Sequence record: PQ014731.1
DNA from: Escherichia phage VB-EcoM-WM
Length of the DNA stretch: 64,000 nucleotides
Direction: 5' to 3' (one strand)
Positions 38,463 to 39,310 of the stretch are shown here, piece by piece. The notes under the pieces were generated by a model. That model searched no databases. It saw only the letters and a list, made by a program, of their open reading frames with translations, and was not told where the DNA came from. Position numbers and translations under genes: made by a program. How positions within the stretch are numbered: the stretch's first letter is position 1; the number at the start of each line of letters is the position of its first letter.

Positions 38463-38491
38463 TTGCAATCTGGTCCAGAATATGGATAATA
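38463..38491 (+). promoter_or_regulatory. sigma70-like promoter (paralogous to 39282)
   Basis: TTGCAA-17nt-ATAATA; spacer ...CCAGAATATGG almost identical to the promoter at 39282. Confidence 0.45.
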
Positions 38492-38549
38492 ACAATCAAC
38501 GGGGAGACACTCCCCACCACACAGACAAAGTTCCAAAAGGAGAAACAAA

Positions 38550-38750
38550 ATGAGCAACAATATCCGCGTTATTAACTTCAAAAAAGAAGAAAAAATAGCT
38601 GTGCTGGTTGATGGTCAAGAAATATTCAAAGGGTATTATGAGGATCATCAGGCGGCGATCAGTATTACCCGCGTAATTGGTTACCATAATTTTTACCCTC
38701 AAGGCGCTGAGGCAGCAGTAAAACGAATTAAGGAGATTGTAGGCCTGTAA
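38550..38750 (+). CDS. hypothetical protein (66 aa)
   Basis: RBS AAGGAGA upstream. Confidence 0.5.
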   Translation: MSNNIRVINFKKEEKIAVLVDGQEIFKGYYEDHQAAISITRVIGYHNFYPQGAEAAVKRIKEIVGL

Positions 38751-38762
38751 AATTTATTTTTA

Positions 38763-38810
38763 GATGGCCTTGACCCCAGGGCCATCAAATAAAGTAAATT
38801 TAAAACCTGT
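38763..38810. repeat. intergenic hairpin repeat element, copy 4
   Basis: AATTTATTTTTAGATGGCCTTGACCCCAGGGCCATCAAATAAAGTAAA. Confidence 0.7.
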
Positions 38811-38842
38811 TAAAATAATCAGTGCAAAAAGGAGAAATGATC

Positions 38843-39142
38843 ATGTTTATACCCGCCAATGATCTTTATTTCTTTGATGGTCAGATCGTAGACGGCGTGG
38901 AAGTTGAGATCGCTGGATGCAAAGGCGGCCAGGTAATGATCTTCCGCAATAGTGCCTTTAACGATCATTTTATTACAATGACTGTTGAAGTTAAAAAGCT
39001 GGATGATAAGAAAACACTCATTGACTATTCCGTGAAAGATCATCCAGACTACCACATGATCTGTGGTGATTTGTGCATTGTTGACCGTGACAAGGTGGGC
39101 GGCATTGTGATCGCTATTGTGAACGATGTTTTTTCTGAATAA
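38843..39142 (+). CDS. hypothetical protein
   Basis: ATG 38843 after RBS AAGGAGAAA. Confidence 0.5.
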   Translation: MFIPANDLYFFDGQIVDGVEVEIAGCKGGQVMIFRNSAFNDHFITMTVEVKKLDDKKTLIDYSVKDHPDYHMICGDLCIVDRDKVGGIVIAIVNDVFSE

Positions 39143-39281
39143 TTCCGGCAAATGATGCAAAATAAGGCCCATGGCAGGGCCTGCAGCGATATAATCATAC
39201 AAAGGCTATGCGGTTGCATGGCCTTTTTTATTTTAGCGCTACAGCGGCCCCCAAGGCGCTTAAAAAATTTTTAAAAAGTAC

Positions 39282-39310
39282 TTGCATCAAGTCCGACAAT
39301 ATGGATAATA
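39282..39310 (+). promoter_or_regulatory. sigma70-like promoter (paralogous to 38463)
   Basis: TTGCAT-17nt-ATAATA with spacer ...CCGACAATATGG. Confidence 0.45.

What the first reader, a model, noticed from the sequence alone, without database searches (positions are those of the whole stretch)
38463..39310. Two promoters sharing an extended conserved core
The promoters at 38463..38491 and 39282..39310 share TTGCA(A/T), a near-identical spacer end (...AATATGG) and ATAATA at -10, more similarity than two independent consensus promoters would need. This suggests a duplicated regulatory module or a shared regulator-binding site.
Basis: seen in the sequence. Interest (0 to 1): 0.35.

Follow-up and report, generated by a model that had tools for sequence, protein, structure and literature searches.

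The report
Two related phage early promoters
These are two neighbouring host-type (sigma-70) early promoters in an rV5-like E. coli phage that share a conserved, non-consensus core, most likely because they are related copies of one promoter cassette; this is a real but fairly ordinary feature of phage early regions.

Summary
Both sites read TTGCA-N13-TATGGATAAT and share an exact 13-mer, AATATGGATAATA. This 13-mer occurs nowhere else in the window or in the 138-kb rV5 genome.

The window is a Vequintavirus (rV5-like coliphage). The sites lie in its early region of small orphan genes. Each site follows an intrinsic terminator and an A/T (UP-like) tract. Each has -35 TTGCA(A/T), a 16-nt spacer and -10 GATAAT, followed by a GC hairpin at the predicted mRNA 5' end, a ribosome-binding site and a gene.

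Both promoters are present in all 17 Vequintavirus sequences compared. The -35 and the -19..-6 block are nearly invariant, while the middle of the spacer varies.

The region holds about 11 such promoter/hairpin modules, and some are clearly paralogous. This resembles the PeSL cassettes of T4-type phages.

The second promoter also matches an early promoter of about 370-kb jumbo phages well beyond the search pattern.

The shared block contains a DnaA-box-like 9-mer (TTATCCA[C/T]A). There is no enrichment or clustering of such boxes to support a shared-regulator reading.

Verdict: two related sigma-70 early promoters, not a genome-wide motif. No transcription data exist. Interest is low to moderate.

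The parts
38400..38430 (+). Intrinsic terminator ending the upstream transcription unit (GGCCCCCGATCCCTGGGGGCC plus a T-run). It is the homologue of rV5 terminator t181.
   Evidence: rV5 Table S4 (PMC3606486) lists t181 as GGCCCCCGATCATGGGGGCC. Conserved in the alignment.
38432..38451 (+). A15T5 tract upstream of promoter S1, an UP-element-like sequence. Relatives mostly have A6T5.
   Evidence: The comparison with the UP consensus AAAWWTWTTTT was made by eye from established knowledge.
38463..38468 (+). S1 -35 hexamer TTGCAA, 4 of 6 against TTGACA. The flank GTG-TTGCAAT resembles that of other promoters of this phage.
   Evidence: Invariant in 17 sequences.
38479..38491 (+). S1 copy of the shared core AATATGGATAATA (-18 to -6). 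It contains the -10 hexamer GATAAT at 38485-38490. On the opposite strand it reads TTATCCATA, which is DnaA-box-like (8 of 9).
   Evidence: 11 of 13 columns are invariant, against about 50% in the rest of the intergenic region (p = 0.017).
38501..38515 (+). GC hairpin GGGGAG-ACA-CUCCCC, beginning about 3-4 nt after the predicted transcription start. It has no T-run, so it is a 5'-UTR stem-loop and not a terminator.
   Evidence: -10.5 kcal/mol, z = -3.9, 0 of 200 shuffles; retained in all relatives.
38537..38750 (+). Ribosome-binding site AAGGAG (38537-38542) and the first gene of the S1 unit (38550-38750, 66 aa, orphan, phrog_12347).
39201..39233 (+). Intrinsic terminator ending the S1 unit (AAAGGCTATGCGGTTGCATGGCCTTT plus a T-run). 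It is the homologue of rV5 terminator t177.
39260..39277 (+). A/T tract TTAAAAAATTTTTAAAAA upstream of promoter S2. It is UP-like, and the A6T5 core also occurs in S1 of most relatives at about the same distance.
39277..39287 (+). AGTACTTGCAT: the S2 -35 hexamer TTGCAT (39282-39287, 3 of 6 against consensus) with the flank AGTAC. This flank is unique in the rV5 genome but is the -35 consensus of jumbo-phage early promoters.
   Evidence: AGTACTTGC occurs once in rV5 and 10 times in 30 kb of phage XbC2.
39298..39310 (+). S2 copy of the shared core AATATGGATAATA. The -10 hexamer GATAAT is at 39304-39309.
   Evidence: 12 of 13 columns are invariant (p = 0.0014).
39321..39334 (+). GC hairpin GGGGG-GCGG-CCCCC in the predicted 5' UTR of the S2 transcript.
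   Evidence: Thermodynamic z is only -1.4. Relatives keep the stem through G-C, then G.U, then A-U changes (GGGGG/CCCCC, GGGGG/CCUCC, GGAGG/CCUCC).
39354..39651 (+). Ribosome-binding site GGGAG (39354-39358) and the first gene of the S2 unit (39367-39651, 94 aa, orphan, phrog_12610).

Best explanation
S1 (38463-38491) and S2 (39282-39310) are two promoters for the host RNA polymerase (sigma-70 type) in the early region of an rV5-like coliphage (Vequintavirus). Each heads a short transcription unit of small orphan genes and is insulated from the unit before it by an intrinsic terminator.

Each promoter compensates for a poor -35 (TTGCAA or TTGCAT) with an upstream A/T (UP-like) tract and a good -10 (GATAAT, 16-nt spacer). 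Each gives an mRNA that starts almost directly with a GC-rich stem-loop. I infer that this stem-loop protects the 5' end.

The extended identity (TTGCA plus AAT[A/G]TGGATAATA at -19..-6) exists because the two are related copies of one promoter design, in a region built from duplicated and exchanged promoter/stem-loop cassettes. The block upstream of the -10 is itself under selection as part of the promoter; I infer contacts with RNA polymerase near -14 to -18.

Shown here: the anatomy, the conservation, the uniqueness of the pair and the presence of paralogous cassettes nearby.
Inferred: transcription initiation, hairpin function, the mechanism of constraint on -19..-13, and the direction or route of copying.
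For: - Identity of the genome: 96.8% to phage HMD-6, and FV3/rV5 relatives.
- Anatomy: terminator, A/T tract, -35, 16-nt spacer, -10, hairpin, ribosome-binding site and ATG at both sites.
- Both promoters are present in 17 of 17 Vequintavirus sequences. The -35 and the -19..-6 block are nearly invariant, whereas the -24..-19 part of the spacer and other intergenic columns vary (11 of 13 and 12 of 13 invariant against about 50%; p = 0.017 and 0.0014).
- A third lineage shows the same pattern. In jumbo-phage contigs L033 and L035 the 10-nt spacer is scrambled (3 of 10 identical) while AGTACTTGCAT and AATATGGATAATAG are identical.
- The pair is unique in the whole rV5 genome, and it is the top pair among promoter-like sites in the window.
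- Neighbouring promoter modules are demonstrably paralogous. D4 (34599-34652 vs 36438-36491) is 80% identical over 54 nt, and D1 has four copies.
- The S2 hairpin is kept through compensatory and G.U changes, which argues for an RNA-level structure on the + strand.
- Published analyses of rV5 and of jumbo phage CBB read the same kind of sites as sigma-70/RpoD-like early promoters with UP-like elements (PMC3606486; PMC5259590).
Against: - No transcription start data exist for any Vequintavirus in the searched literature.
- Neither site is in the rV5 promoter list, and S2 scores only 8 of 12 against the consensus.
- Homology between S1 and S2 is limited to about 30 nt. Their flanks (terminators, hairpins, genes) are analogous rather than alignable, so convergence cannot be separated from old duplication.
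- The TG of the conserved block lies at -14/-13, one base off the canonical extended -10 register, so the proposed polymerase contact is not textbook.
- The two indels examined in this region are microhomology deletions, not exchanges between cassettes.
Confidence: 0.6

Rival explanations
1. The shared block is an operator. A protein binds AAT(A/G)TGGATAATA over the -10 of both promoters and switches the two units off or on together. The candidates are host DnaA, because the opposite strand reads TTATCCA(C/T)A, or an unidentified phage early protein.
For: - The G allele gives a perfect DnaA box TTATCCACA. It occurs in rV5 S1, in six other S1 sequences and in S2 of L003. The A allele, including both window sites, gives 8 of 9.
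- The block is conserved beyond the -10 hexamer in three lineages.
- The motif is restricted to exactly two promoters in the genome, as expected for a specific operator.
Against: - The one polymorphic position is box position 8, which matters for the stringent DnaA consensus.
- DnaA boxes are not enriched in the window or in rV5, and none cluster near S1 or S2. The relaxed consensus TTWTNCACA gives 8 hits against 8.3 expected in the window and 15 against 18.3 in rV5.
- The match was found after the fact among many possible factors.
- The block is not palindromic.
- Neighbouring genes have no DNA-binding domains.
Confidence: 0.13
2. S2 is an imported promoter cassette of the type used by about 360-kb jumbo phages of Enterobacterales (Mimasvirus/Eneladusvirus). 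S1 acquired the same -10 block by recombination or gene conversion with it. The similarity therefore reflects horizontal movement of a promoter rather than local duplication.
For: - Outside the positions fixed by the search pattern, S2 matches the promoter of the XbC2_3 homologue at about 16 of 22 positions by my count: AAGTACTTGCAT...AATATGGATAATA(G/A)GAC(T)TATC.
- AGTACTTGC is the jumbo phages' own -35 consensus: 10 copies in 30 kb of XbC2, but only one (S2) in all of rV5.
- S1 instead carries the native GTG-TTGCAAT flank that is also seen at 37155.
- In L003 both S1 and S2 carry the G allele and share 14 nt.
Against: - Only about 45 nt are involved, with no flanking gene homology.
- A strong promoter design could arise twice by convergence.
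- The total number of IMG/VR hits to the pattern (about 8 independent ones outside Vequintavirus) is roughly what chance predicts (my estimate).
Confidence: 0.15
3. The similarity is chance: two independent promoters that happen to share a 13-mer.
For: - Exact 13-mers recur by chance in 64 kb.
- The tail of pair identities among loosely promoter-like sites (69, 11, 3, 1) makes about one 13/13 pair somewhere in the window unsurprising.
Against: - Both members are among about 11 real intergenic modules, and both also share TTGCA and an A6T5 tract at a similar distance.
- No shuffle of 2000 reaches the alignment score.
- The block is conserved at both sites in 17 genomes.
Confidence: 0.07
4. One or both sites are not promoters at all, only promoter-like sequence in a leader transcribed from upstream.
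For: - S2 matches the consensus at only 8 of 12 positions, and neither site is in the published rV5 promoter table.
- The rV5 GenBank record annotates an ORF (ORF 180) across S1.
Against: - Strong terminators lie 30-55 nt upstream of each site, so the downstream genes need a promoter.
- The conservation pattern is hexamer-centred.
- ORF 180 is not annotated in other relatives.
Confidence: 0.05

Closest known systems
Sigma-70-type early promoters predicted in phage rV5 (Kropinski et al. 2013, PMC3606486, Table S4)
   Same: Same phage genus and same early region, with the same architecture: an A/T-rich upstream tract, a -35 and -10 for host RNA polymerase, and a short leader. The terminators directly upstream of S1 and S2 are that paper's t181 and t177.
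   Different: The published list required at least 10 of 12 matches to TTGACA-N15-17-TATAAT and contains neither site. S1 and S2 have TTGCA(A/T) and GATAAT, plus a shared -19..-13 block that no other rV5 promoter has.
PeSL (promoter-early stem-loop) cassettes of T4-type phages RB49/phi1 (Arbiol et al. 2010, PMC2839356; Comeau et al. 2014, PMC4122927)
   Same: - Composite intergenic modules in an orphan-gene-rich plastic region: an AT-rich tract, a sigma-70-like promoter, a G-run/C-run stem-loop and a ribosome-binding site.
- One described subclass has the stem-loop just downstream of the -10.
- Repeated, partly homologous copies occur here too.
- rV5 early genes include several RB49 homologues.
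   Different: - This is a different phage family.
- The stem-loops after S1 and S2 lack T-runs, and separate terminators are present, so they are unlikely to be attenuators.
- S1/S2 homology is about 30 nt, not about 100.
- The two indels I examined are not cassette-to-cassette exchanges.
- Mini-circles are untested.
RpoD-like early promoters with UP-like elements in CBB/GAP32-type jumbo phages (Buttimer et al. 2017, PMC5259590), and the AGTACTTGC-type early promoters seen here in XbC2, Kaldavass, fHe-Yen9-04 and Serratia BF
   Same: S2 shares AAGTACTTGCAT, the AATATGGATAATA(G) -10 block and part of the start region with the promoter of the XbC2_3 homologue.
   Different: - The phages and the downstream genes are unrelated.
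- Jumbo-phage promoters usually carry a second AGTACT next to the -10 and a TTATCGAAAC start region, both of which S2 lacks in most relatives.
E. coli DnaA box (TTATCCACA; TTATNCACA) overlapping a promoter
   Same: The opposite strand of the shared block reads TTATCCA(C/T)A across the -10. That is the position from which DnaA represses some host promoters (established knowledge).
   Different: - The window copies are 8 of 9, and the variable base is a consensus position.
- There is no clustering or enrichment.
- Binding is untested.
5'-terminal stabilising stem-loops of E. coli mRNAs (ompA type; Emory, Bouvet and Belasco 1992, cited from memory)
   Same: A stable hairpin lies within a few nucleotides of the predicted 5' end of the transcript, followed by an unstructured ACA-rich leader and a ribosome-binding site.
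   Different: The transcript 5' ends and half-lives are unknown. The hairpins are short GC clamps rather than the ompA structure.

Membership tests
Sigma-70 (host RNA polymerase) phage early promoter | A -10 hexamer resembling TATAAT, with A at -11 and T at -7 | tested here: met
   GATAAT (5 of 6) at 38485-38490 and 39304-39309. Invariant in 17 genomes.
Sigma-70 (host RNA polymerase) phage early promoter | A -35 hexamer resembling TTGACA, 16-18 nt upstream of the -10 | tested here: inconclusive
   The spacer is 16 nt. TTGCAA is 4 of 6 and TTGCAT only 3 of 6. S1 passes the generic scan at 9 of 12, and S2 fails at 8 of 12. TTG is conserved in all relatives.
Sigma-70 (host RNA polymerase) phage early promoter | Intergenic position, on the same strand as and upstream of a gene with a ribosome-binding site, and needed because a terminator precedes it | tested here: met
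Sigma-70 (host RNA polymerase) phage early promoter | Transcription by E-sigma70 starts there early in infection | not testable with these tools
   No transcription start or RNA-seq data for Vequintavirus were found.
Extended -10 (TGn) promoter | TG at -15/-14, one base upstream of the hexamer | tested here: not met
   With GATAAT as the hexamer, the TG is at -14/-13. The register fits only if ATAATA is taken as the hexamer, and that hexamer lacks A-11 and T-7 (direct reading).
PeSL cassette (Arbiol 2010) | A composite of an AT-rich tract, a sigma-70-like promoter, a G/C stem-loop and a ribosome-binding site, in an orphan-gene-rich region | tested here: met
PeSL cassette (Arbiol 2010) | Many copies conserved over about 100 bp that serve as recombination sites, producing indels or replacements bounded by cassettes and mini-circles | tested here: inconclusive
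   Paralogous modules exist (D4: 54 nt at 80%; D1: four copies of 61 nt; S1/S2: about 30 nt). The two indels examined end in microhomologies: GGCAATG at 39751-39757, and an extra gene inserted at 39155. Mini-circles are not testable here.
PeSL cassette (Arbiol 2010) | The stem-loop acts as a terminator or attenuator of upstream transcription | tested here: not met
   The hairpins after S1 and S2 have no T-run, and separate canonical terminators lie upstream.
DnaA box / DnaA-regulated promoter | A 9-mer matching TTATNCACA | tested here: not met
   Both window copies read TTATCCATA (8 of 9). Relatives with the G allele reach 9 of 9.
DnaA box / DnaA-regulated promoter | Enrichment or clustering of boxes, and DnaA binding | tested here: not met
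   The relaxed consensus gives 8 hits against 8.3 expected in the window and 15 against 18.3 in rV5, with none adjacent to S1 or S2. Binding is not testable.
Sigma-54 promoter (TGGCAC-N5-TTGCA) | GG at -24, ten to eleven bases upstream of the GC of TTGCA | tested here: not met
   Direct reading: there is no GG at the required distance at either site.

The most novel reading that the evidence does not exclude
The -19..-6 block is not just promoter sequence but a portable control element. In one version it is an operator over the -10, DnaA-box-like TTATCCA(C/T)A, through which host DnaA or a phage early protein co-regulates exactly two insulated early units. In the other version it is the core of a promoter cassette that moves between unrelated phage families: Vequintavirus and the approximately 360-kb Mimasvirus-type jumbo phages share AGTACTTGCAT-N10-AATATGGATAATAG...TATC.
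Probability: 0.15. Interest if true: 0.5.

Novelty: new member of a known kind. Interest (0 to 1): 0.22.

Why it matters
- It adds two unlisted early promoters to the transcription map of rV5-like phages, which are used in E. coli O157 biocontrol. Together with their terminators, the promoters define two short early transcription units of orphan genes.
- It shows that the early region is built from families of related promoter/stem-loop modules. This organisation was previously described for T4-type phages (PeSLs) and may explain how orphan early genes are gained and expressed.
- If the conserved -19..-13 block or the DnaA-box-like reading proved functional, it would give a handle on how a subset of early genes is controlled.
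- The compact promoter plus 5' hairpin modules could also serve as parts for phage engineering.

None of this overturns current understanding.

Tried and rejected
- **Genome-wide promoter class: rejected.** In the full 137,947-bp rV5 genome only S1 and S2 match TTGCA-N15-TGGATAAT with up to 1 mismatch, or the 13-mer with up to 1 mismatch. The window gives the same result.
- **Sigma-54 (-12 TTGCA): rejected.** There is no -24 GG.
- **Canonical extended -10: rejected.** The register is off by one.
- **rV5 'late' motif TGGTAAAATA: poor match.** Those sites are themselves TGn-extended sigma-70 promoters.
- **DnaA regulon or origin: no support.** No enrichment and no clustering.
- **Known RNA families in 31000-45000:** none at E <= 1.
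- **Duplicated downstream genes: rejected.** The genes fall in different PHROGs (12347 vs 12610), have no Pfam domain above threshold, and both are confined to Vequintavirus.
- **Protein-seeded fetch from IMG/VR:** gave only two loci, so GenBank relatives were used instead.
- **Formal pair counting on the S2 hairpin: abandoned.** MAFFT put stems with different loop lengths out of register (alignment A1). Per-sequence folds were used instead.
- **PeSL-style exchange at indels:** not supported for the two indels examined.
- **IMG/VR hit in L028/L029/L031/L034:** it resembles S1 at 25 of 29 positions but lies inside a 72-aa ORF, so I treat it as coincidence. It has no GenBank phage relative.
- **Literature:** the search for transcription start data in Vequintavirinae found nothing. 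A sequence-string search for GTACTTGC returned only primer noise.
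Full report
**What the window is.** A 3-kb query around the finding matches 241 phage records. 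The best are Escherichia phages HMD-6 (96.8%), SYGMH1, FV3 and other rV5-like viruses of the genus Vequintavirus. The finding lies in the early region, a run of small + strand genes from about 31.3 to 41.5 kb. All of them are annotated as hypothetical in relatives, and all fall in PHROG families of unknown function.

**The observation.** The + strand reads TTGCAATCTGGTCCAGAATATGGATAATA at 38463-38491 (S1) and TTGCATCAAGTCCGACAATATGGATAATA at 39282-39310 (S2).
- The two share TTGCA and a contiguous 13-mer, AATATGGATAATA. No other copy with 0 or 1 mismatch exists in the window.
- TTGCA-N13-TATGGATAAT is exact only at these two places.
- The best hexamer assignment is -35 TTGCAA or TTGCAT, a 16-nt spacer and -10 GATAAT.
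- The generic scan lists S1 (9 of 12) but not S2 (8 of 12).

**Is it more than chance?**
- A 13-mer repeat in 64 kb is not remarkable by itself. Among 16,466 pairs of 182 loosely promoter-like sites, this is the only 13/13 pair at -18..-6, but the distribution tail (69, 11, 3, 1) shows that roughly one such pair could occur somewhere.
- What makes the pair real is context. Both members belong to about 11 intergenic promoter modules.
- Their local alignment scores 31, against 14.6 +/- 2.1 for shuffles, and 0 of 2000 shuffles reach it.
- The shared bases depart from the sigma-70 consensus rather than matching it.

**Anatomy.** Each site has the same layout.
- An intrinsic terminator comes first: 38400-38430 and 39201-39233. 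These are homologues of rV5 terminators t181 and t177.
- An A/T tract follows: A15T5 at 38432-38451 and T2A6T5A5 at 39260-39277. In most relatives both sites carry A6T5 about 10-11 nt before the -35.
- Then comes the promoter.
- A GC hairpin lies 3-6 nt after the predicted start: 38501-38515 (-10.5 kcal/mol, z = -3.9) and 39321-39334 (z = -1.4).
- An unstructured leader, a ribosome-binding site and the gene complete the unit (38550-38750, 66 aa; 39367-39651, 94 aa).
- The hairpins have no T-run, so they are not terminators on this strand.
- The S2 stem is maintained in relatives as GGGGG/CCCCC, GGGGG/CCUCC (G.U) and GGAGG/CCUCC. That is a compensatory series, and it makes sense only for + strand RNA.

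**Conservation.** I aligned both intergenic regions from the window with 16 Vequintavirus sequences, including rV5, FV3, V18, JES2013, Murica and two IMG/VR contigs.
- Both promoters are present in all 17.
- In S1, TGTTGCAA and AAT(A/G)TGGATAATAA(C/T)AATCAAC are nearly invariant, while 4-5 spacer positions vary freely.
- In S2, CTTGCATCA and ACAAT(A/G)TGGATAATA are conserved, while the spacer and the 8 nt after the block vary.
- The 13 core columns are 11 of 13 (S1) and 12 of 13 (S2) invariant, against about 50% in the rest of each intergenic region (p = 0.017 and 0.0014).
- The single polymorphic core position is the same A/G in both sites.

The published rV5 promoter table (33 promoters, at least 10 of 12 to consensus) contains neither site, although it contains the two terminators just upstream. 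The rV5 GenBank record even annotates a 41-aa 'ORF 180' across S1.

**The wider setting is families of promoter/stem-loop modules.** The early region has about 11 modules of the form promoter, short leader hairpin, ACA-rich leader and ribosome-binding site.
- Some are plainly paralogous. 34599-34652 and 36438-36491 are 80% identical over 54 nt (D4).
- A 61-nt element with a hairpin around TTGAC occurs four times (D1).
- By local alignment score, S1/S2 ranks behind only those D4-type pairs.
- S1 shares its -35 flank GTGTTGCAAT with the promoter at 37155, and its -10 block with S2, so it looks mosaic.

This organisation is what Arbiol et al. called PeSLs in the T4-type phages RB49/phi1. PeSLs combine an AT-rich tract, a sigma-70-like promoter and a G-run/C-run stem-loop in orphan-gene-rich plastic regions. 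One subclass has the stem-loop just after the -10. The PeSL papers I read do not mention rV5-like phages.

I did not find the hallmark of PeSL function.
- The ~495-bp difference from HMD-6 at 39751-39757 is a microhomology (GGCAATG) deletion.
- The extra 351-nt gene of EdH4/Murica at 39155 is not bounded by cassettes.

**An unexpected relative of S2.** I scanned IMG/VR for TTGCA-N11-AATRTGGATAATA. The scan returned the two Vequintavirus contigs, each with both sites, and about 8 independent other lineages, roughly the number I estimate from chance. Four of those lineages lie 28-46 nt upstream of a start codon.
- One lineage, from ~370-kb jumbo-phage contigs related to Xanthomonas phage XbC2 and Erwinia phage Kaldavass, matches S2 well beyond the pattern. 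It reads AGTACTTGCAT-N10-AATATGGATAATAG(G/A)ACTTATC, against AAGTACTTGCAT-N10-AATATGGATAATAAGACTTATC in HMD-6 S2.
- In these phages aaAGTACTTG(C/A)(A/T)(T/A) is the general -35 motif of early promoters. AGTACTTGC occurs 10 times in the first 30 kb of XbC2 but only once, at S2, in all of rV5.
- Between two diverged jumbo contigs the 10-nt spacer is scrambled while AATATGG and the flanks are identical. This is a third lineage in which -19..-13 is conserved.

S2 may therefore be a jumbo-phage-type promoter acquired horizontally, or a convergent strong design. About 45 nt cannot decide between these.

**The regulator idea.** The opposite strand of the block reads TTATCCA(C/T)A.
- The G allele is a perfect DnaA box. 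It occurs in rV5 S1, in six other S1 sequences and in S2 of one contig.
- The A allele, including both window sites, is 8 of 9.
- DnaA boxes are neither enriched nor clustered in the window or in rV5.
- The variable base is a consensus position.
- The match was found after the fact.
- No neighbouring gene shows a DNA-binding domain, and no Rfam family matches the region.

**Conclusion.** The most likely reading (about 0.6) is two host-polymerase early promoters that head consecutive, terminator-insulated units of orphan genes.
- They are related to each other as copies of one promoter design, in a region assembled from duplicated promoter/stem-loop cassettes.
- Selection maintains the -35, the -10 and the block just upstream of the -10.
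- How the polymerase would use -19..-13 is inferred, not shown. The TG lies one base off the canonical extended -10 register.

Rivals are a shared operator (0.13), import of S2 from jumbo phages with copying into S1 (0.15), chance (0.07) and non-promoters (0.05). No transcription data for this phage group were found, so 5'-end mapping is the decisive missing experiment.

**Novelty and interest.** This is a new member of a known kind: unlisted sigma-70 early promoters and PeSL-like cassettes in a phage group where they had not been described. It would not surprise a specialist, so I score interest at 0.22.

Noticed in passing
window 32764-32782 (also 32631-32650, 42865-42884 and about 42843): GATAATGATAATCGTTCTC matches the E. 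coli Fur-box consensus GATAATGATAATCATTATC at 17 of 19 positions. The expected number of such matches in the window is 0.01. Related copies AATGATAATC(A/G)TTCTC lie in the two long non-coding stretches. The 32764 copy overlaps a promoter-like TTGCAT-N17/18-GATAAT. These may be iron/Fur-controlled phage promoters.
   Followed up: partly
window 32664-32684 (+), 32798-32818 (+, 3 mismatches), 40721-40741 (-): The GC-rich 21-mer CACCCCCGGTGATTGTCTCCC occurs as an exact inverted pair about 8 kb apart, bracketing the small-gene early region. With the flank ATAACGGG the shared stretch is about 29 nt. A third, diverged copy is present. Each + strand copy follows a Fur-box-like site. These may be structured RNAs or recombination sites.
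   Followed up: partly
window 34386-34446, 35008-35068, 35339-35399, 38739-38799: Four copies of a 61-nt intergenic element (66-100% identity). It has the hairpin GATGGCC-TTGACyCC-AGGGCCATC, with a promoter-like TTGACT-N18-TAAACT embedded. This is a PeSL-like class with the stem-loop over the -35. One copy lies between S1 and S2.
   Followed up: partly
window 34599-34652 and 36438-36491: Two promoter plus 5' hairpin modules (TTGACA...TATAcT TAAACAC...CGGGAAAACTTCCC) are 80% identical over 54 nt. These are clearly paralogous cassettes, more alike than S1 and S2.
   Followed up: partly
window 32328-32513: Three roughly 65-nt tandem-like repeats (72-77% identity...GTACTCGATCTGTTTTTCGTTTTC...GATTTT) lie in a 670-nt non-coding stretch.
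   Followed up: no
window 41452-43255: A 1.8-kb stretch with no convincing ORF corresponds to the 'non-coding' box of rV5 (104013-106618; PMC3606486). It contains repeats such as ATGCAAACGAATG(T/G)CATGGC at 42108 and 42367, and CAAATATACATGTAAAATAGCTATTGCA at 41568 and 41645. It is a candidate origin or regulatory region.
   Followed up: no
window 39716-39776, junction at 39751-39757: Relative to HMD-6, the window lacks about 495 bp: the homologues of rV5 ORF175 and ORF174 and one promoter. The deletion joins a GGCAATG in the ORF175 homologue to the same heptamer inside a leader hairpin (GGCGGCAATGATGCCGCC). This leaves a truncated ORF start.
   Followed up: partly
L008 1541-1666 (rV5 record DQ832317, 111043-111168): rV5 'ORF 180' is annotated across the S1 promoter and 5' UTR and overlaps the start of ORF 179. 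Other relatives do not annotate it, so it is probably not a gene.
   Followed up: partly
L036 1-30000 (Xanthomonas phage XbC2); also L037-L039: The palindrome AGTACT is extremely frequent: 294 strand-counted hits in 30 kb, against 32 in all of rV5. It flanks both the -35 and the -10 of the jumbo phages' early promoters, which end in TTATCGAAAC near the start site. Its role is unexplained.
   Followed up: no
L007 about 2400 (phage V18, S2 leader): A run of about 17 G replaces the 5' arm of the S2 hairpin. This is probably a homopolymer assembly error or slippage.
   Followed up: no
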